From assembly GCA_963663475.2 (NCBI GenBank), contig CAXXJV010000001.1, positions 2,656,001 through 2,720,000 of the forward strand: a DNA stretch of 64,000 nt, in the 5' to 3' direction. This document shows positions 1,817 to 40,226 of this stretch, piece by piece. The number at the start of each line of letters is the position of its first letter. Positions within the stretch are counted from its first letter, which is position 1. The notes beneath the pieces were generated by a model that was not told where the DNA came from, did not search any database, and saw only the letters and a list, made by a program, of their open reading frames with translations. Made by a program: the position numbers and the translations under genes. Origin of the DNA: Candidatus Cloacimonadales bacterium (lineage in GTDB: Bacteria > Cloacimonadota > Cloacimonadia > Cloacimonadales > JAFGVF01).

Positions 1817-2377
1817 ATGAATATAAAAAAGCTTTTCTTAATAATTTCTCTAACAATTCTCTTTTCTTCTTTATCAGCTTTCGAGTTCGGTAAAGATATA
1901 AGTCTCTTCTTACAAGAACAAGGTATTCCCAAACAATTAATCATAATTTTGATATCAATGTTGCCTATTGTTGAGTTAAGAGGAGCAATTCCTATTGCCA
2001 TAGGTTTATTAGGGATGACTTGGTGGGAAGCCATAAGTCTTGCTATCATTGGAAATATGATACCTATTCCCTTTGTTTTACTTTTTATGGAAAAAATCAC
2101 CCTTATCTTGAATAAATGGTCTTTTACTAGAAAACTTTTAGCTAAGATTTTTGCCAGAACTCGTAGTAAAAGTAAAGTTATTGAAAAATATGAGGAAATT
2201 GGTTTAACTCTCTTTGTTGCAATCCCCCTTCCAATTACTGGGGCTTGGACAGGTTCACTGGCAGCTTATCTCTTAGGATTAAAATTCTGGAAATCTATCT
2301 TGTGTGCCTTAGCTGGAGTCAGCATTGCTGGTGTGATTATGACTTTATTATCACTTGGACTTTTTTCTTTCCTATAA
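1817..2377 (+). CDS. Small multidrug export family (COG2426) membrane protein
   Basis: MLPIVELRGAIP and LFVAIPLPITGAWTG motifs. Confidence 0.88.
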   Translation: MNIKKLFLIISLTILFSSLSAFEFGKDISLFLQEQGIPKQLIIILISMLPIVELRGAIPIAIGLLGMTWWEAISLAIIGNMIPIPFVLLFMEKITLILNKWSFTRKLLAKIFARTRSKSKVIEKYEEIGLTLFVAIPLPITGAWTGSLAAYLLGLKFWKSILCALAGVSIAGVIMTLLSLGLFSFL

Positions 2378-2590: not shown

Positions 2591-2736
2591 GATTCTTTAC
2601 ACGAATTAACACGAATTAGAACGAATTTCACGAATAAGAAAAGCTCTTTAACACGGAGTTCATAGAGGTAAAGAGGAGTTTCACAGAGTTTTTTTTTTTG
2701 CATAAATCTACCTTGCTAAAAGCCTGCCCATCTTTG

Positions 2737-4656
2737 ATAGGGGTAGGGGAGCTACCATTACTGACTCCCCTCCCTCCGAACCGTACGTGCGGTTCTCCCG
2801 CATACGGCTCTCCAGATAATAATTTACTCTCTGTGTAGAGATTGACATAATTGACGATGGGTTTCGGTTAATGAGAGAAGCCCAGCGTCTTCAAAGATTT
2901 TGTTTGGATATCTGAAATTATCTCTATATGTTGTTGCAATTCCTTTTCGTTTTTCAAACTTCTTTAGTATACTTCTTAGTCTTCGTCTTATCCATCCGTC
3001 CATATCTGGAAAAGTTGTTTTGTAGCAGTGTTTGTAATATTCAAACCAGCCTCGTATAATCGGATTTATCCTCTTGATTATTTCTTTTAAACTTTTCCCA
3101 TTTGTTCTTCTGGTATGTTTCCTAATACTATCCCTGAATTTCTTTTCACTCTTACGTTTAGGAAACTTTCAGAAAATCTTTGTCTTCTCGTAGTTCTTAG
3201 ATTTAACAAATCTATATCCCAAAAATCCTATCTCATCTTGCATACTATCAAGTATTTTAGTTTTGGTAGGATGGAGAATTAACTCAGCTTTTTCTGTCCA
3301 TTCCTTTACTGTTTCAAGTGCTTCTTCTGATTCTTTCTGGCTTCTACACATAATTATAAAGTCATCTGCATATCTTACCATTTGATAGTTTTTACTACTT
3401 ATTAACCAGTCAAACTTATTTAGATAGATATTTGCTAATAATGGACTTAATACTGCACCTTGTGGTGTTCCTTTTTCGGGAATCCATGTATCTAGCCCAT
3501 TAAATATACTTTGATTCAGAAATTTCTGAATTAGTTCTAGTACACGACTATCAGATATCTCTTCTTTTACTAAATCCATTAACTTTGATTTAGGTATTGT
3601 ATCAAAATATCCTTTTAAGTCTGCATCAACTACATATCGATAGCCTCTTTTAAGGTTATTATACACTATTCTGAGTGCATCTTTACAACTTCTTTTAGGT
3701 CTAAAACCAAAGCTATTTTCTGAAAATTTGATTTCAAATATTGGCTCGATTACATTCCTTATTGCTGTTTGAACTATTCTGTCTTCAACTGTTGGAATGC
3801 CTAAAGGTCGCTTTTCCTTACTTCCAGGTTTATCTATCATTACCCTTTTAATTGCATTTGGCTCGTATTCCTGCATTTCTAATCGCTTAGCTAATCTTTG
3901 CAACCTTTGTTCTACATGTTTCTCATAATGAGAGATACTCATATTATCAACGCCTGCACTTCCTTTATTAGCTTTTACTCTTTTCCATGCTGATAATAGA
4001 TTGTCTTTTGAATATACTTTATCTATTAAGCTAAACCATTTGCCTCCTTTGACTCCCCTTTGGAGAGCTGTCAACATTTTGTCTGTCCAGACAGACGATT
4101 CAGTCCATTTCCACTCTAATCTTATGAGAGAATTTTCTTCTTGTCCTTGTCTAGTCTTTTGTGACACTAACGAACATTTGTCTTTCATCTGTTTTTCCTT
4201 TTAAAATTTTATTATCCTGCTCCCCTTCGCTACTTTCAGGTTATGTTGTCCTGAATATCAACACTACTATGAGAGCTCTGACTCCTGAATACATCTCTAC
4301 CTATATTCAGGTCTCATAGCTTACCGATAACGACCTTCTTACCATTCCATCTCCAACCACATCTAACGTCCTGATATAGCTTACCGTTCAAACATCATAC
4401 AGCTTATCAGGTGTATGGCAAGCGGTGTAGGTTCTCACACCTTCCTGCAATACCATCATCAGTTTTCACCTTGCAATCGGAGGCTCAACACTATTAGCTG
4501 CCGAATCGAGTTCACTTATGTTACGGACTGGTATTTCACTTCCAGTTACTCCCCACCCAACCTCACGGTTACGCAGTTACTTTCAGTTACAGAACTTTTG
4601 ATGTAAGTTCTGAGTAGGACTTTCACCTACCTGATAGTTATCTATCACTATCGTAC
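2737..4656 (-). mobile_element. Group II intron (ribozyme plus RT/maturase ORF)
   Basis: 5' end GUACG at 4656; domain V GAGCCGUAUGCGGGAGAACCGCACGUACGGUUC (2810-2778); DVI ending CCCCUAU at 2737; candidate EBS1 GGUCGU (4335-4330) pairs with 5' exon GCGACC; an empty-site homolog at 15017-15047 supports the boundaries. Confidence 0.9.
2824..4188 (-). pseudogene. ltrA: Group II intron reverse transcriptase/maturase interrupted by an in-frame TGA at 3169-3171
   Basis: RPLGIP, GTPQGAVLSPLLANIYL and YADD motifs; same frame continues after the stop with a domain X-like sequence (INPIIRGWFEYY...DGWIRRRLR) to TAA at 2824; no endonuclease domain. Confidence 0.85.
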
Positions 4657-32343: not shown

Positions 32344-32408
32344 AGGTTAAAGAGCTTTTACACTAATTAGCACGAATTATAACGAATTAACACGAATAGG
32401 AGAAAAGA

Positions 32409-36723: not shown

Positions 36724-36932
36724 TGAAGTTAGAACTAAGAGAAAAGATAGAGAACTTGTTATTGGCTCAAGATGAATATGCCAGGTTGTTGGTTGAGGCT
36801 GGTAGAACTGGGACTCCTGTTAGTGGTGATATATACATAATGCTAAGTGATGCTAAGGATAGATTGATGGAAGAGATGAGGATGATGAGTGGGAATGGAG
36901 TTACAGAATTGTCGGAAGTCGCTACTTCGTGA
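36723..36932 (+). CDS. Small hypothetical protein coupled to the antirepressor
   Basis: TAATG overlap, GAGGTG RBS. Confidence 0.55.
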   Translation: MKLELREKIENLLLAQDEYARLLVEAGRTGTPVSGDIYIMLSDAKDRLMEEMRMMSGNGVTELSEVATS

Positions 36933-37035
36933 GCAAGACCCGTCATTAAGAGAAGACCTTCACACTAATTAAGGCGAATTAAAACGAATTACACGAATAA
37001 ATCTTGCTTGAAGCAAGAAAGTGATTAAGATATAA

Positions 37036-37290
37036 ATAGAAGCACCGAAAGAGCTTAATCCTCGTTTGATTGGTGTGGACGGCTGGAGTTGGATAAGCAG
37101 ACTACGAGCCCCTTGACGGAAAGGGCTAACCTGGAAGCGACGTTTGTTGATTCGTGGCGTGTTAGCGTCTTAATATTAACATAGAAGTGGAGAGAGAGCT
37201 TAATCCTCGTTTGATCAAAGCGGAAACTATGATATGATTAAGGTATCTGATAGACCATAAAAAAGGGAACACGATGTGCTCCCTTTTTCT
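37036..37290 (+). ncRNA. Candidate tandem small structured RNAs (two related units, period 145 nt)
   Basis: ATAGAAG-N7-AGAGCTTAATCCTCGTTTGAT-N6-GGA at 37036-37079 and 37181-37224; promoter-like hexamers before each; 3' hairpins; no ORF. Confidence 0.55.
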
Positions 37291-37294
37291 TTTT
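37259..37294. terminator. Bidirectional intrinsic terminator
   Basis: AAAAAAGGGAACAC-GAT-GTGCTCCCTTTTT between convergent units. Confidence 0.75.
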
Positions 37295-37296
37295 AC

Positions 37297-40086
37297 TCAT
37301 TTCAATAAATAGCCCATTCTCTGCTTGTTCATGTATTTAGCATTAGCATCAAAGAAGTTAAAGTATTCTATGTTTCCTTCTTGGTTGATATAGGTAATAA
37401 CACAGATGTTATCACTATATTTTTTGAGGTAATAGGTTCTGAAGACTTTAGTGCTGTTGTTATTATGCTTCCAGATTTCATCAGGATTTTGAACAACATC
37501 ATCAATAGTATTCATGTATTTTAAGCGACTTGCTACTTCCTTTAGAGGTTTGTTTTCGAAATGCTTAACTGCTTTTGCACTGAGATAAACATCAGTATTG
37601 GTGGAGTCTTTTAAGTGTCTATCCCCCAAGAAGTTTTTATAATCCTCTAGCAATTCATCTTTAGTTTTACCATCTGTATCGTAGAGTTTTGGCAGTTTAT
37701 TCTCTGGCATATCTTTCCAATCCTTAAGCTTTAAATCCTTGTAGGTATTTGCATATAAATCAGGGCAATGCTTTTTACCTGAGTTGAAGATGTGTAAACG
37801 CTTGCTTCTGATAGACATTTCTGGGTATAAAATAGAAATGTTTTTAGCATCTTCACAGCTTAACCAATCCCCAAAGAGAGAATTGTCTTTGCCTACATTG
37901 CGTTTAAATTCTTTTTTAACATTTGAATCAGGAGGAACATCTCTCTTGAGTCCAGGGTCTCCGTTAGCTTCTTCTTCAGTGAGTTGTTCTTTACCACAAC
38001 GACAACCCCAGCCATTAGGAGGATAATACTCATCCCAGAAAGGATCATCTACATGTCTGACTATACCATCTAAGGCTCTATGTTCATCTCTCACCGCATC
38101 ATCTTGCATGGTAATATAACGGAGATAAGGGAAGATTTCTTTAGTGTCCTGGATATCTTTCCATTCTGCAGATGCACGAGCCGATTTAATAGCTTGTTGG
38201 AAGTTGGTTCTTAGGTGATAAGGATTATCAGGTTCAAAACCTTTTAGCTTTAGATTTTCCTGAAACTCTTGAAATGTAGTACCTTGAGTAAAGGCTTTTT
38301 CCGCTTCGGACTTAATCATGTCAAGCATGGATTGAGAAGTAACTCCTGCTACGATAAAGGTTTCAGCTCTGAATGCATGGAGGGCTTTGGTATCTTCCAG
38401 GGTCCAGTCTATTTCGAAGTTGAAGTCAGCCCCTAAATCCCCTGAAGGGGACTTTGAAGAAACCTCACACGAAGGCACGAAGGCACGAAGAGGGGAATTA
38501 AGAGAAGATGCGGGCTGGAAGCCCACGTTCCCAGTTAAGGAAGAGGAAGCTTTCTTCTTTAGAGAAGCTTTTCTTAGCTTATAGTATTCTTTAAGAAGTG
38601 TTTGATACATCTCATTCGCATAGGTTAAATAGAGGTCTTTAGGATAAGACATATTTTCTATATCTTTGAATGACTTGGCTTCTTTGATTTGAGATTTGAT
38701 TTTCTTGAGTTCTTTGAGGGAAGCCCCTAAATCACCTGAAGGGGACTTTGAAGATATACAGTCAGTTGAACTGCCTGTGCGGGCAGGGATGCCCGCGTTC
38801 CCAGTTATGGCGGCAGGGATGCCCGCGTTCCCAGTTATGCCGACAGGGATGCCCGTGTTCCCAGTTATGCCGACAGGGATGCCAGCGTTCCCAGTGGAGC
38901 CAACCCCAACCCTATTCTGAAAAGGGAAGAGCTGAGATGCAACCTCCTTTAGTTTTGCACCAGACTTTGGTACAGGGATGCCATAAGTGGTGTACCAATA
39001 ATCAGGTTCGATTTCGATGATATTATTTAGTTGAGTATCGATGTTTATCTTTGTGTTTAAATCAACATGTTCAGGGATAGTAAGAGTTACTTTAATATCT
39101 TGGTCAACGAAGTTCAATCTGTTTAACCTGGAGCAGATATAAGAGATATACTTAGAGCAGTCTCTGATGTCAGCCTGGAGGATATCCTGTCTGACCATGT
39201 TATGAACCTTAGCTTGAGCATAGGATCCTGTCTTTTCAGTATTAGTTGTGAGAGTTTGGCCAAGTATTCTTTTAGAGATTGATTTTTTACAGAAATCTAA
39301 AAGAGTTGCGTAGAGATTAGCATTAGCTGAAGCATTTTTAAAGTCTGCGAACTCAATTAGAGTATTTTCAGAGATAACAGCTCCTAAGTCTGTACCCAGG
39401 TTCTTTACCATAGACTTGAGTAGGTTCTTCTCTTCAGGAGTTGAACCTGGTTTATATTTACCAATTCTGATAGGTTTTCCATAGGTTTCAACAAAGGAAG
39501 CCCAGTTGTTGAGAGCAAAGGAAAAGAAAGCATAGTATTTGATAATAGACTCATAGACTGAATAATTTTGATATAGACGCACAAATTTATCATCAGAGAG
39601 GCTTTTCTTCTCATCTTCGACATACAAGACCAATTCAGATTTTTCAGCCCTCAAATCGAGGTTTTTGTATTCTATGAACTTGTCTATGGTATAAAGATTG
39701 TTTTCCAGCTTAAAGGTAATCTGACGAAAGAGAGAACCAGTTAGTTTTAAATCAAGAGCCTGGTCAATGAGGACTGTAAAAAAGTTCTCTAAAAAGGCTT
39801 TAAAGAAGTCTTGTTGTTGCTTCGAGAGACCTTCAGGGAAAGTGAAAGAAGCTGATTTAAGAGCTTCTACTCTGACATCAGTATCCCCAGCCAGGTTATC
39901 ATCAAGCTTATATAGTCTATCATATAAGTTATTAAGGTGTTTTAATCTTCCATTGTTGGCATTATGTAGAGCTAAATCCATTTCTGAAGGTGTGATTTTA
40001 GCTGACCAAAGAGGTTTTTCTTCCTCAATTTTATTTTGAGTTAAGATGGTTGTTGATGTTTTTTTAAATAAATCAAGTATATTCAT
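37297..40086 (-). CDS. Fusion of portal (Mu gp29/DUF935), MuF head morphogenesis domain (gp30) and C-terminal PBECR2-like nuclease
   Basis: Portal: W..FVETYGKP.RIGKY, ILGQTLTT...GSYAQAKVH. MuF: YLRY.T..D..VRDEH..LDG...DDPFW..YYPPNGWGCRC. C-terminus: RLKYMNTIDDVVQNPDEIW...YYLKKY. Start at ATG 40086 with AAGGAG. Confidence 0.85.
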   Translation of the reverse strand: MNILDLFKKTSTTILTQNKIEEEKPLWSAKITPSEMDLALHNANNGRLKHLNNLYDRLYKLDDNLAGDTDVRVEALKSASFTFPEGLSKQQQDFFKAFLENFFTVLIDQALDLKLTGSLFRQITFKLENNLYTIDKFIEYKNLDLRAEKSELVLYVEDEKKSLSDDKFVRLYQNYSVYESIIKYYAFFSFALNNWASFVETYGKPIRIGKYKPGSTPEEKNLLKSMVKNLGTDLGAVISENTLIEFADFKNASANANLYATLLDFCKKSISKRILGQTLTTNTEKTGSYAQAKVHNMVRQDILQADIRDCSKYISYICSRLNRLNFVDQDIKVTLTIPEHVDLNTKINIDTQLNNIIEIEPDYWYTTYGIPVPKSGAKLKEVASQLFPFQNRVGVGSTGNAGIPVGITGNTGIPVGITGNAGIPAAITGNAGIPARTGSSTDCISSKSPSGDLGASLKELKKIKSQIKEAKSFKDIENMSYPKDLYLTYANEMYQTLLKEYYKLRKASLKKKASSSLTGNVGFQPASSLNSPLRAFVPSCEVSSKSPSGDLGADFNFEIDWTLEDTKALHAFRAETFIVAGVTSQSMLDMIKSEAEKAFTQGTTFQEFQENLKLKGFEPDNPYHLRTNFQQAIKSARASAEWKDIQDTKEIFPYLRYITMQDDAVRDEHRALDGIVRHVDDPFWDEYYPPNGWGCRCGKEQLTEEEANGDPGLKRDVPPDSNVKKEFKRNVGKDNSLFGDWLSCEDAKNISILYPEMSIRSKRLHIFNSGKKHCPDLYANTYKDLKLKDWKDMPENKLPKLYDTDGKTKDELLEDYKNFLGDRHLKDSTNTDVYLSAKAVKHFENKPLKEVASRLKYMNTIDDVVQNPDEIWKHNNNSTKVFRTYYLKKYSDNICVITYINQEGNIEYFNFFDANAKYMNKQRMGYLLK
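38777..38896. repeat. 4 x 30-bp tandem palindromic repeat inside the portal-MuF ORF
   Basis: Units of type ATGCCGACAGGGATGCCCGTGTTCCCAGTT, translated as TGNAGIPVGI-like repeats. Confidence 0.92.
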
Positions 40087-40226
40087 TTTTTTCTCCTTTA
40101 ATATTTTAAGAGCTTTTACACGAATTAACGCGAATTTAAGCGAATTAACACGAATTAATGCGGGAAAGATGCCCACGTTCCCAGTTAATTAAGATGCCGA
40201 CAGGGATGTCGGCGCTCCCAGTAGTG

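What the first reader, a model, noticed from the sequence alone, without database searches (positions are those of the whole stretch)
37004..37290. Tandem small RNAs with constant scaffold, two variable segments and an HDV-ribozyme-like core, facing a virion nuclease gene
Seen: two units exactly 145 nt apart share ATAGAAG-N7-AGAGCTTAATCCTCGTTTGAT-N6-GGA and a TAAG at identical offset (37094, 37239) complementary to the conserved CTTA, suggesting a pseudoknot. Each has promoter-like hexamers (TTGCTT-16-TAAGAT; TTGATT-18-TAATAT) and a 3' hairpin. Unit 1 folds like an HDV/theta ribozyme core: 7-bp P1 GCACCGA/UUGGUGU with G1-U wobble, loop UCCUCGU, then GG. In unit 2 the variable segments do not pair in cis. 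I cannot confidently assign P2 or a catalytic C. Inference, competing models: (a) RNA antitoxin for the convergent MuF nuclease, (b) trans-acting guide or ribozyme with programmable segments, (c) CRISPR-repeat mimic, since the minus strand CCAATCAAACGAGGATTAAG resembles ends of some type I-B/III repeats.
Basis: partly seen in the sequence, partly recalled or inferred. Interest (0 to 1): 0.8.

Follow-up and report, generated by a model that had tools for sequence, protein, structure and literature searches.

The report
Kissing-loop small RNAs beside phage nuclease
Two neighbouring genes in a Mu-like prophage encode small, tightly folded RNAs of a family not described before, which nearly always sits tail-to-tail with the phage's virion nuclease gene; they are not HDV-type ribozymes, and what they do is still unknown.

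Summary
Two units 145 nt apart (37036-37176 and 37181-37295, + strand) share the stated scaffold, each with a promoter-like site and a 3' hairpin.

They belong to a structured small-RNA family with no Rfam match. I found 26 distinct units, all in Cloacimonadota genomes, prophages or metagenome contigs.

Covariation supports this fold:
- Hairpin 1: P1, an asymmetric internal loop, a 3-4 bp P3 and a 6-7 nt loop L3.
- Hairpin 2, whose loop L2 is complementary to L3.

Contigs from RNA libraries of three studies hold the RNA region.

The HDV-like reading fails: there is no P2, no C at the catalytic place and no Rfam hit, and its P3 overlaps helices shown by covariation.

The "variable segments" are not programmable. 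They define two conserved paralogue types, and type B does pair in cis around a purine-rich internal loop. Similarity to the host CRISPR repeat is at chance level.

The RNA lies convergent, within about 40 nt, to the portal-MuF-PBECR2 gene, even where PBECR identity falls to 32%. Orphan copies keep PBECR gene remnants.

Best guess (about 0.3): a protein-binding RNA that neutralises the PBECR RNase. The function is untested.

The parts
37004..37031 (+). Promoter-like site of unit 1: TTGCTT (37004-37009), 16 nt, TAAGAT (37026-37031). The -35 lies in the palindrome TCTTGCTTGAAGCAAGA (37002-37018).
   Evidence: I9. The same TTGCxx-N16-TAAGAT arrangement stands before units in L002 and L193. Other loci have near-consensus TTGACA-17-TATATT before the unit (L004, L174).
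37036..37110 (+). Unit 1 (type A), core fold. Leader 37036-37041; P1 37042-37048 with 37070-37076; J 37049-37050; P3 37051-37053 with 37061-37063; L3 CTTAATC 37054-37060; J 37064-37069; GGA 37077-37079. Hairpin 2: Pa 37081-37084 with 37107-37110, Pb 37087-37089 with 37101-37103, loop with GGATAAGC 37091-37098. L3:L2 pairing is GCTTA(A)TCC:GGAT-AAGC with one bulged A.
   Evidence: Model R1 81.2 bits, R2 80.2 bits. Pair counts; variant table.
37111..37176 (+). 3' extension of the long form of unit 1: a small covarying hairpin (CCCTT/AAGGG here), GGCTAACC, then GACG...CGTC TTAATAT. It contains the TTGATT-18-TAATAT site that may serve as the promoter of unit 2.
   Evidence: The same extension follows units in L014, L167 and L217, with no unit behind it in L014 and L167. 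RNA-library contigs are deepest here. The fold is not resolved: only 4 sequences and 1 pair with a double change.
37181..37256 (+). Unit 2 (type B). Leader 37181-37186; P1 37187-37193 with 37215-37221 (G-C, U.G, GGA x AAA internal loop, G-C, A-U); J GA 37194-37195; P3 37196-37198 with 37206-37208; L3 CTTAATC 37199-37205; J GTTTGA 37209-37214; GGA 37222-37224. Hairpin 2: CTAT/ATAG and GATA/TATC stems, loop with GATTAAG 37236-37242.
   Evidence: R1 91 bits, R2 83.1 bits. Pair counts; table.
37260..37295 (.). Intrinsic terminator hairpin AAAAAGGGAACAC/GTGCTCCCTTTTT followed by a T run. It has an A run before and a T run after, so it could serve both the RNA and the convergent gene.
   Evidence: I2; fold.
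37297..40176 (-). Convergent gene: a 959-aa fusion of Portal_Mu + Phage_Mu_F + PBECR2 (predicted BECR-fold RNase domain, residues about 852-958). Its stop codon lies 2 nt from the end of the RNA terminator tail.
   Evidence: Pfam hits PF06074 9e-57, PF04233 1.5e-16, PF18810 6.1e-16; PHROGs portal / minor head protein.

Best explanation
SHOWN: the two units are genes of an undescribed family of compact structured small RNAs, about 85 nt in the core form and about 140 nt in the long form. The family is carried by Mu-like transposable prophages of Cloacimonadota and by prophage remnants.

Each unit is a promoter-RNA-terminator cassette on the + strand. The fold has two parts:
- Hairpin 1: P1 of 5-7 bp, an asymmetric internal loop (usually GA on the 5' side, GUUUGA or GUGAA on the 3' side), a 3-4 bp P3 and a 6-7 nt loop L3.
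- After GGA or GAA, an irregular hairpin 2 whose loop L2 is complementary to L3 over 5-7 bp.

Two paralogue types, A and B, differ in P1. Type A has a plain helix. Type B has a helix with an invariant GGA x AAR purine internal loop.

INFERRED (about 0.3): the RNA is a protein-binding RNA made in the lysogen. It binds and neutralises the PBECR2 RNase domain at the C-terminus of the portal-MuF protein encoded tail-to-tail with it. That would make it an RNA 'immunity'/antitoxin factor. It would protect lysogens, and cells that kept only the RNA, from the nuclease that related virions carry. The conserved loop nucleotides and the type-specific P1 would be the recognition surface.

The structural part I hold at about 0.9. 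The confidence figure below is for the functional mechanism.
For: Family and fold:
- Exact and model-based searches gave 26 distinct units.
- On 21 distinct rows, 86.2% of cells pair against 73.4% in shuffles. 15 of 21 pairs carry double changes, and 0 of 500 shuffles reach any of the five measures. Slid controls fall to 30-40% paired.
- The L3:L2 duplex occurs as CUUAAUC:GAUUAAG, CUUAGCC:GGCUAAG, CUUAGAC:GUUUAAG, GCUUAUC:GAUAAGU, CCUGC:GCAGG, GCCUGC:GCAGGC, ACUACC:GGUAGU and CUUGCU:AGCAAG. There are also bulged GCUUAaUCC:GGAUAAGC and GUUUAaUCC:GGAUAAAC forms.
- P3 occurs as GAG/CUC, GAG/CUU, GCG/CGC, GUG/CAC, GUG/CGC and GGA/UCC.
- G.U pairs on the + strand fix the strand.

Expression: contigs from RNA libraries of three studies (X1, X2, X8; X3 is probably DNA) lie on 37028-37264. 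Single-contig word depths reach 490 in X1.

Link to PBECR:
- A PBECR C-terminus is convergent, 17-38 nt from the end of the model match in 15 places and 98 nt in L014. The places are the window, L014, L153, L159, L156/L164/L168, L158, L188, L217, L218 and L384, L387, L393, L395.
- PBECR identity to the window's domain falls to 32-43% in these, and the RNA's own sequence has diverged with it.
- In the 151-genome phylum sample, 9 of the 13 genomes that I accept as RNA-positive also have a PBECR match.
- Orphan units keep short PBECR 3' remnants beside them: two modules in L157/L199 (50 and 41 aa), L174 (29 aa) and L195 (16 aa).

Immunity position:
- No ORF of 40 aa or more lies between 36947 and 37296.
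- Jamet 2017 (PMC5576092, passages read) reports that 89.4% of 191 MuF toxin genes are followed by a small putative immunity ORF.
- Iyer 2017 (PMC5512222, section 19 read) predicts that PBECR domains are RNases or RNA binders packaged in virions.
Against: - No experiment or computation here shows RNA-protein contact.
- Linkage could be plain inherited synteny in one phage lineage. The site between the early operon and the MuF gene also carries unrelated accessory genes: two small membrane proteins in G066.
- 7 RNA places have no PBECR within the fetched flanks: L161, L154/L012, L167, L193, L394, L401, L398.
- One PBECR prophage with an assessable downstream region (G049, L386) has no family member. 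It holds a different small cassette instead.
- There is no clear pairing between RNA type (A, B, A') and PBECR clade. The window-like PBECR goes with A+B, A+A'+B or A alone.
- The His expected in the N-terminal helix of active BECR domains is not conserved among these PBECR domains; an Arg is. So activity is uncertain (criterion).
- Known RNA antitoxins (type III) lie upstream of and co-directional with their toxin, not convergent.
- A virion protein made late in a dying cell may need no immunity.
Confidence: 0.3

Rival explanations
1. A prophage 'moron' regulatory small RNA. It acts in trans by base pairing, through the conserved unpaired stretch CCUCGUUUGA or the L3 loop, on host or phage mRNAs, for example by covering ribosome-binding sites.
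For: It has its own promoter and terminator between two phage operons, RNA-library contigs, and orphan copies kept in host chromosomes. The 13-mer AAACGAGGATTAA, complementary to UUAAUCCUCGUUU, occurs 3 times outside the RNA genes against a mean of 0.36 for permuted words. One copy lies on the ribosome-binding site of the 808-aa gene at G000 C1:1502104.
Against: The fold is unusually elaborate for a seed-pairing sRNA, and half of that 13-mer is locked in the L3:L2 helix. No outstanding target appeared among 123 translation-start regions of the window. No site combines complements of the two type-B segments. The unpaired stretch is not conserved in the divergent members, where GUUUGA becomes GUGAA or AAUGA. 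The permuted-word control is crude.
Confidence: 0.2
2. A ligand-binding RNA (a riboswitch-type aptamer without an expression platform) that acts as a sponge or sensor for a small molecule, for example a defence or signalling nucleotide.
For: The architecture fits: a helix with a purine-rich asymmetric internal loop, long-range loop-loop pairing, and invariant junction nucleotides. Recalled, not tested: known aptamers such as lysine and SAM-I riboswitches look like this. The contigs in RNA libraries are deep.
Against: No gene lies downstream to control. No Rfam aptamer family matched. Junction nucleotides differ between subfamilies. No ligand is suggested by the neighbouring genes.
Confidence: 0.1
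3. An assembly or packaging RNA in the manner of phi29 pRNA. L3 of one molecule pairs with L2 of the next (hand in hand), building a multimer on the portal-MuF-PBECR dodecamer.
For: Two complementary loops covary, and covariation cannot tell intra- from intermolecular pairing. The two hairpins abut with almost no linker. The gene sits beside the portal-MuF and terminase genes. Co-transcribed neighbouring units carry different loop pairs: A with A' in L014 and L217, A with CUUAGAC:GUUUAAG in L193.
Against: The phage has an ordinary TerS/TerL pair. No helix joins the 5' and 3' ends. Orphan copies with intact promoter, terminator and compensating changes persist without any morphogenesis gene (L161, L199, L394, L398). 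The promoters are sigma-70-like rather than late-type. The features of pRNA are recalled from memory.
Confidence: 0.08
4. A self-cleaving ribozyme, either HDV/theta-like as the reader proposed or of a new class. It would cut just 5' of P1 and so separate the directly abutting units (A-A', A-A'', B-A'').
For: P1 begins with G.U in type A. GAAG or GUGAA before P1 is kept even in internal units that have no promoter. The junction nucleotides are invariant.
Against: Those alternative pairs show no compensatory change. They use nucleotides that covariation assigns to P3 and L3. No P2 partner for the stretch after P1 was seen. The base after GG is A wherever a GGA follows P1, whereas the catalytic C is the first J4/2 position in HDV-like ribozymes (PMC10879173, passages read). 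No ribozyme family of Rfam matched at E up to 10 or up to 1 in 10 more loci. Promoter-proximal units have only a leader of about 3-4 nt to remove. Contigs from RNA libraries bridge the unit junctions (loose ends at 37264 in X2 and X8).
Confidence: 0.06
5. An RNA anti-CRISPR (a mimic of the host CRISPR repeat) or a programmable guide RNA.
For: The minus strand CCAATCAAACGAGGATT aligns with CCATTAAACCAAGGATT of the host's 88-repeat array at 13 of 17 positions.
Against: 163 to 897 of 1000 shuffled repeats score as well. The functional strand is the + strand, by G.U pairs, promoters and terminators. No spacer of the array matches the genome beyond 17-21 nt chance hits. The 'variable' segments are fixed within each type, so they are not guides. 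No RNA-guided nuclease gene was found among the 20 neighbouring proteins scanned.
Confidence: 0.03

Closest known systems
Type III toxin-antitoxin RNA antitoxins (ToxI, CptI, TenpI)
   Same: A pseudoknotted or structured small RNA, often in tandem units, encoded next to an endoribonuclease gene and proposed to neutralise it by direct binding. Basis: abstracts listed (PMC8860590, PMC5772629) and general knowledge.
   Different: Here the units are 85-140 nt, not about 34-36 nt repeats. Most have their own promoter. They lie downstream of and convergent to the nuclease gene, not upstream and co-directional. The nuclease is a BECR-fold domain fused to a virion portal-MuF protein, not a ToxN/CptN/TenpN protein. 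Binding is untested.
MuF polymorphic toxin / immunity modules (Jamet 2017) and PBECR polyvalent proteins (Iyer 2017)
   Same: A MuF protein with a C-terminal nuclease-type domain in a temperate phage. The element sits exactly where the immunity gene is expected, and displaced C-terminal remnants lie next to further copies, as with orphan toxin-immunity cassettes.
   Different: The partner is an RNA on the opposite strand, not a small protein ORF. PBECR at the end of MuF is common in Mu-like phages, inactive in Mu itself according to Iyer 2017, and has no known immunity factor.
HDV-like / theta ribozymes
   Same: A 7-bp P1 that starts with G.U encloses a 3-bp P3 with a 7-nt loop that pairs with downstream nucleotides. 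The element is phage-borne.
   Different: There is no P2, no catalytic C after P1.1 and no tRNA neighbour. L3 pairs with a hairpin loop over 5-7 bp instead of forming a 2-bp P1.1. No covariance-model match was found.
phi29 pRNA
   Same: A phage small RNA with two mutually complementary, covarying loops, encoded in a phage with a portal-centred function nearby. The features of pRNA are recalled.
   Different: No sequence or model similarity. Different phage type (Mu-like, with TerS/TerL). Orphan copies persist in host chromosomes. No 5'/3' end helix.

Membership tests
HDV-like / theta ribozyme | Nested double pseudoknot with P2 (the strand after P1 5' pairs with the 3' end) | tested here: not met
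   Only 2-3 nt lie between P1 and P3. By reading the aligned sequences I saw no complement to (G)AGAGC in the 3' parts. The 3' part forms its own covarying hairpin, Pa/Pb. The feature is taken from PMC10879173.
HDV-like / theta ribozyme | Catalytic cytosine at the first position of J4/2, after P1.1 | tested here: not met
   Every one of the 20 full-length distinct units of A3 has GGA directly after P1. In the wider alignment A5 the G two places before that A is invariant and the next G nearly so. The divergent units L395, L396, L398 and L401 have GAA instead, and L394 and L387 have GGGGA. So the base at this place is A or G, never C.
HDV-like / theta ribozyme | P3 with L3, and P1.1 between L3 and the GG after P1 | tested here: inconclusive
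They overlap the P3 (GAG/CUC and variants) and L3 that do covary.
HDV-like / theta ribozyme | Match to the curated covariance models (Rfam HDV-type families) | tested here: not met
   No such hit at E up to 10 on 36800-37450, at gathering score on the window, or at E up to 1 on 10 related loci.
Type III toxin-antitoxin | Short tandem RNA repeats upstream of, and co-transcribed with, a ToxN/CptN/TenpN-type endoribonuclease | tested here: not met
   The units are 85-140 nt and lie convergent and downstream of the gene. The nuclease domain is PBECR2, PF18810.
Type III toxin-antitoxin | The RNA binds and inhibits the nuclease, and the nuclease processes the repeat array | not testable with these tools
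   No RNA-protein prediction tool was on hand. It needs co-expression, gel shift and cleavage assays.
MuF polymorphic toxin with immunity partner | MuF domain with a C-terminal toxin-type domain in a temperate phage | tested here: met
   Portal_Mu + Phage_Mu_F + PBECR2 in one 959-aa ORF of a Mu-like prophage. Catalytic competence is unknown: the His is not conserved, the Arg is.
MuF polymorphic toxin with immunity partner | [quoted passage not shown] | tested here: not met
   No ORF of 40 aa or more lies in 36947-37296 on either strand. RNA genes on the other strand fill the space.
RNA anti-CRISPR (repeat mimic) | Sequence and hairpin similarity to the host's CRISPR repeat | tested here: not met
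   Local alignment scores of 6-9 are reached by 163-897 of 1000 shuffled repeats. The definition of the class is recalled from memory.
phi29-type pRNA | Intermolecular pairing of two loops that builds a ring on the portal | not testable with these tools
   The complementary, covarying loops exist. Whether they pair within or between molecules cannot be told from sequence.

The most novel reading that the evidence does not exclude
The RNA is the immunity factor of a phage-delivered polymorphic toxin. It would be a structured RNA that binds and silences the BECR-fold RNase domain on the portal-MuF virion protein. It would be made constitutively by lysogens and kept as an 'orphan immunity RNA' by cells that lost the prophage. 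If so, it is the first RNA immunity partner in a polymorphic-toxin system, and a new RNA-antitoxin class (convergent, long units, kissing-loop fold) for a BECR nuclease.
Probability: 0.27. Interest if true: 0.85.

Novelty: new variant of a known kind. Interest (0 to 1): 0.62.

Why it matters
This is a well-supported new structured RNA class: four helices with compensatory changes, at least nine versions of the loop-loop helix, and no Rfam relative. It comes from a little-studied phylum and its Mu-like phages.

It keeps a fixed place tail-to-tail with a virion nuclease gene while both diverge. That makes a concrete hypothesis directly testable in E. coli with three small constructs: is an RNA the immunity or antitoxin partner of a phage-injected RNase? 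A positive result would add RNA to the repertoire of toxin immunity and superinfection exclusion. It would also give a first functional handle on PBECR domains, which are widespread in phage polyvalent proteins and have no assigned target.

Even without that, the fold is a compact natural module of interest to RNA structural biology. It combines a helix with a purine internal loop and a short hairpin whose whole loop kisses a neighbouring hairpin loop.

Tried and rejected
1. My degenerate pattern had the wrong spacing for A/B units and fits only the A' form. It returned 116 and 18 loci from unrelated taxa. I judged these chance matches from the taxa listed and did not score them with the model. 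One genome scan and one viral scan were wasted.

2. Coverage on the flanks. In one search none of the four laid runs had a contig on 36500-36895 or 37292-37800. The holders may also be relatives whose flanks differ.

3. Target searches for the type-B segments (complements CTCTCCA and GCTTYGA within 60 nt) gave only scattered coding-region hits. ATCAAACGAGG with 1 mismatch gave 2 extra sites in the window. Duplex energies against 123 start regions gave no outlier that I trust.

4. CRISPR mimicry and self-targeting spacers were negative.

5. The CGAATTA 10-nt periodic repeats just upstream of unit 1 looked like operators. They are a genome-wide repeat with 82 matches, so they are not specific to the RNA.

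6. The consensus fold of the long-form 3' extension had too few distinct sequences: 4 sequences, 1 covarying pair.

7. MFE folds of the single units are not better than shuffles (z -0.87 and -1.37). The evidence for the structure is comparative, not thermodynamic.

8. Three hits of model R2 were rejected as chance after reading them: L397 (inside a P-loop ATPase-like coding stretch), L399 and L403 (no promoter, terminator or kissing pair). L386 and L391 hold other small promoter-terminator cassettes in the same slot, which I could not place in the family.

9. L224, a Cloacimonadales MuF-PBECR at 37% identity, has what looks like a group II intron directly after the gene: a 450-aa reverse-strand ORF, not scanned. 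No family member lies within 2.5 kb.

10. The notes of earlier scans held nothing for this place or sequence.

11. A kink-turn reading of the P1/P3 internal loop (GA opposite NNN-GA) is a recalled resemblance only. Type A often has AA or CA on the short strand.
Full report
**1. The observation**

The window sequence holds ATAGAAG-N7-AGAGCTTAATCCTCGTTTGAT-N6-GGA at 37036-37079 and at 37181-37224, start to start 145 nt. The 21-mer occurs only at these two places in the 64-kb window, even with 3 mismatches allowed, against 0 in 100 shuffles.

**2. Setting**

The window is G000:C1:2656001-2720000 of a 3.3-Mb, 33% G+C genome. Exact-match loci elsewhere all bear Cloacimonadota or Cloacimonadales titles.

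The region is a Mu-like transposable prophage:
- On the + strand up to 36932: a MuA-type transposase, a MuB-type ATPase, GemA, DUF3164 and an ORF6N/sigma-70-region-4 protein.
- On the - strand: TerS, TerL and a 959-aa Portal_Mu + Phage_Mu_F + PBECR2 fusion (37297-40176).

The two RNA units fill the 364 nt between the two converging blocks. No ORF of 40 aa or more lies there. There is no tRNA in the window. There is no Rfam family at gathering score in the region, and nothing but terminator-like noise at E up to 10.

**3. Relatives**

- Exact scans with the 21-mer found 3 viral loci (2 contigs) and 10 genome loci.
- The host genome has a second prophage copy near C1:158 kb.
- A looser core pattern found 40 metagenome and 6 viral loci. 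Model R1 kept matches at E below 1e-8 in only 10 of these 46.
- A sample of 151 Cloacimonadota genomes gave 6 with R1 matches.

There are two conserved types:
- Type A: GCACCGA ... UUGGUGU, with covarying versions CACUAA/UUAGUG, CACCAA, CACAGC/GCUGUG and CAUUGA/UCAAUG.
- Type B: GUGGAGA ... UCAAAGC or UCGAAGC, identical in all 9 distinct B units of A3, including the divergent L157.

**4. Structure**

Pairs were counted on 21 distinct rows. P1, the two stems of hairpin 2 (Pa, Pb) and the long-range helix 19-25:58-64 gave these figures:
- 86.2% of cells paired, against 73.4% in shuffles.
- 15 of 21 pairs with changes on both sides.
- 0 of 500 shuffles reaching any measure.
- 30-40% paired when partners are slid by 1-3 columns.

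Type B does form P1: G-C, U.G, three purine-purine oppositions (GGA against AAA or GAA), then G-C and A-U.

*Divergent members.* I scored the DNA next to distant PBECR genes with the filters off. This found weak hits at exactly the expected place and strand. On reading they proved to be diverged family members, each with its own promoter and terminator. A second model, R2, then found more.

*P3 and the kissing loops.* With these members a further helix became visible. A 3-4 bp P3 closes the 6-7 nt loop L3, which is the 5' strand of the long-range helix. P3 occurs as GAG/CUC, GAG/CUU, GCG/CGC, GUG/CAC, GUG/CGC and GGA/UCC. The script mis-parsed 3 of the 26 units: window unit 1, L167 and L217 A'. 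In window unit 1 and L217 A' I read GAG...CUC or GAG...CUU by eye.

So the long-range helix is a kissing interaction between two hairpin loops. It occurs as:
- CUUAAUC:GAUUAAG (13 distinct units)
- CUUAGCC:GGCUAAG
- CUUAGAC:GUUUAAG
- GCUUAUC:GAUAAGU
- CCUGC:GCAGG
- GCCUGC:GCAGGC
- ACUACC:GGUAGU
- CUUGCU:AGCAAG
- CCUGCC:GGCAGG (L387, read by eye)
- two bulged forms

G.U pairs, promoters and terminators all point to the + strand. Single-sequence folding energies are unremarkable. The case for the structure rests on comparison.

**5. The HDV-like reading**

UUAA/UUGA as P3 and GG:CC as P1.1 are compatible in 98.8% and 97.5% of cells. No pair shows a change on both sides, and these nucleotides are the ones that covariation assigns to P3 and L3.

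Only 2-3 nt separate P1 from P3, so there is no P2 strand. Reading the aligned sequences, I saw no 3' partner for it.

The base after GG is A in every one of the 20 full-length distinct units of A3. Several divergent units have GAA at this place. In HDV-like ribozymes the catalytic C is the first base of J4/2 (PMC10879173, passages read). No ribozyme model of Rfam matches.

I file it as not a member. A new self-cleaving class cannot be excluded by sequence alone.

**6. Expression**

Of the 12 runs offered I laid four. All four are held as contigs. Three are RNA libraries from three studies; the fourth is probably DNA.

All four have short contigs (49-279 nt) on 37028-37264. In X1 single contigs reach word depth 490.

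Contigs also show other unit orders: a B unit followed directly by a UUAGAAGCAUUGAG unit in X2 and X8, and the long-form extension followed by an A unit in X1. These fit the tandem variety seen in genomes (L193).

This fits an abundant stable RNA. Contigs cannot show ends, strand or level, and DNA can be present in RNA libraries.

**7. Link to the nuclease gene**

- In the window, L014, L153, L159, L156/L164/L168, L158, L188, L217 and L218, the last unit is followed by the stop codon of a convergent ORF that ends in the PBECR motif. The distance is 18-38 nt from the end of the model match, and 98 nt in L014.
- The same holds at 17-22 nt for L384, L387, L393 and L395. Their PBECR domains are only 43, 35, 32 and 39% identical to the window's.
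- In the 151-genome sample, 15 genomes have a PBECR match and 13 have an R2 match at E up to 0.01. I rejected 3 of those hits (2 genomes and an extra hit in G000) and added G010 and G130, which were found with filters off. That gives 13 RNA-positive genomes, of which 9 also have PBECR.
  - RNA only: G097, G073, G013, G074.
  - PBECR only: G046, G049, G001, G019, G036, G087. Of these, G087 runs off its contig, and three are partial matches at 26-31% identity.
- Among 160 MuF-related loci from other phyla and from IMG/VR, only the 6 Cloacimonadales-type loci carry the RNA.
- Orphan units in host contexts keep remnants of the PBECR 3' end beside them:
  - beside mraZ/rsmH in L199
  - beside a peptidase gene in L174
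  - two modules in L157/L199 (50 aa at 94% and 41 aa at 66% to the L158 type)
  - 29 aa in L174
  - 16 aa in L195
- Seven places have none within the DNA fetched.

**8. Reading**

PBECR domains are predicted metal-independent RNases, or RNA binders, packaged with MuF and portal domains into virions (PMC5512222, section 19). MuF proteins with toxin domains are reported to be followed by a small immunity ORF in 89.4% of 191 cases (PMC5576092, passages).

Here that place holds convergent, self-promoted, structured RNA genes that persist after the prophage decays. I therefore rank first, at about 0.3, an RNA that binds and neutralises the PBECR domain. It would work like a type III antitoxin or an immunity factor without being a member of either family.

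Points against this reading:
- Conserved synteny alone could give the linkage.
- The same slot holds other accessory genes in G066.
- RNA type does not track PBECR clade.
- The catalytic His is not conserved in these domains.

The rivals are a base-pairing regulator (0.2), a ligand-binding RNA (0.1), a pRNA-like multimer on the portal (0.08), a ribozyme (0.06), and a CRISPR mimic or guide (0.03). The remainder is 'something else'.

**9. Prior description**

Rfam 15 has no match. Full-text searches were:
- MuF/PBECR
- Cloacimonadota / prophage / small RNA
- MuF / polymorphic toxin / immunity / prophage
- theta ribozyme / HDV-like / bacteriophage
- type III toxin-antitoxin terms

Judged from titles and abstracts, none of the listed papers describes such an RNA. 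Supplements were not opened. Motif lists in supplements or in subscription journals could hold it.

Noticed in passing
window 2737-2812 (-): Rfam group II intron domain (RF00029, 60.2 bits, E 2.5e-09), far from the finding. A likely second group II intron (a 450-aa reverse-strand ORF, not scanned) sits directly after the MuF-PBECR gene in the related locus L224 (3530-4950).
   Followed up: no
window 2602-2637, 32373-32398, 36975-37000, 40121-40157; 82 matches genome-wide: Arrays of a 10-nt periodic repeat (T/C)ACACGAATTA-ACACGAATTA-... are scattered through intergenic DNA of this genome, often next to other repeat families. One array lies just upstream of the unit-1 promoter, and the same array is conserved in L193. 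Function unknown: repeat element, UP-like module or protein-binding array.
   Followed up: partly
G000 C1:1257810-1264158 (outside the window): A large CRISPR array of 88 repeats of GTCTAAAACCTGAATCCATTAAACCAAGGATTGAAAC with 34-38 nt spacers. No spacer matches the two prophages.
   Followed up: partly
G000 C1:157489-158300 (-), locus L014: A second Mu-like prophage in the same genome, with PBECR 59% identical. It carries a promoter, unit A and, directly abutting it, a diverged unit A' in the long form, but no type B unit.
   Followed up: yes
L156 1599-2409 (G066; four identical prophage copies): Between a truncated unit (broken after GATT) and an intact unit lie two small ORFs of 80 and 179 aa that look membrane-spanning by their hydrophobic stretches, co-directional with the RNAs. 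The slot seems to be an accessory-gene hot spot.
   Followed up: partly
L386 about 1950-2100 (-) and L391 about 1950-2100 (-): In two more distant PBECR prophages (G049, G001), the slot convergent to the nuclease gene holds a different TTGACA-promoter / about 90-nt / terminator cassette that does not fit the family model. These are possibly unrelated small RNAs in the same position.
   Followed up: partly
G000 C1:1502087-1502106: AAAACGAGGATTAATTAAATG: 13 nt complementary to UUAAUCCUCGUUU of the RNA cover the ribosome-binding site of an 808-aa ORF. It looks like a glycoside hydrolase from its sequence but was not scanned. The 13-mer has 3 copies outside the RNA genes, against 0.36 for permuted words.
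   Followed up: partly
L193 2-1567 (+), 1618-2237: A metagenome contig with four units (A, a diverged unit abutting it, B, B) directly downstream of a fused N6-DNA-methylase / type I specificity-domain gene. No phage gene lies within the 2.2 kb held.
   Followed up: partly
L199 1373-1735 (-): A 120-aa GIY-YIG domain ORF lies upstream of the first of the two orphan B units, which stand beside mraZ/rsmH.
   Followed up: no
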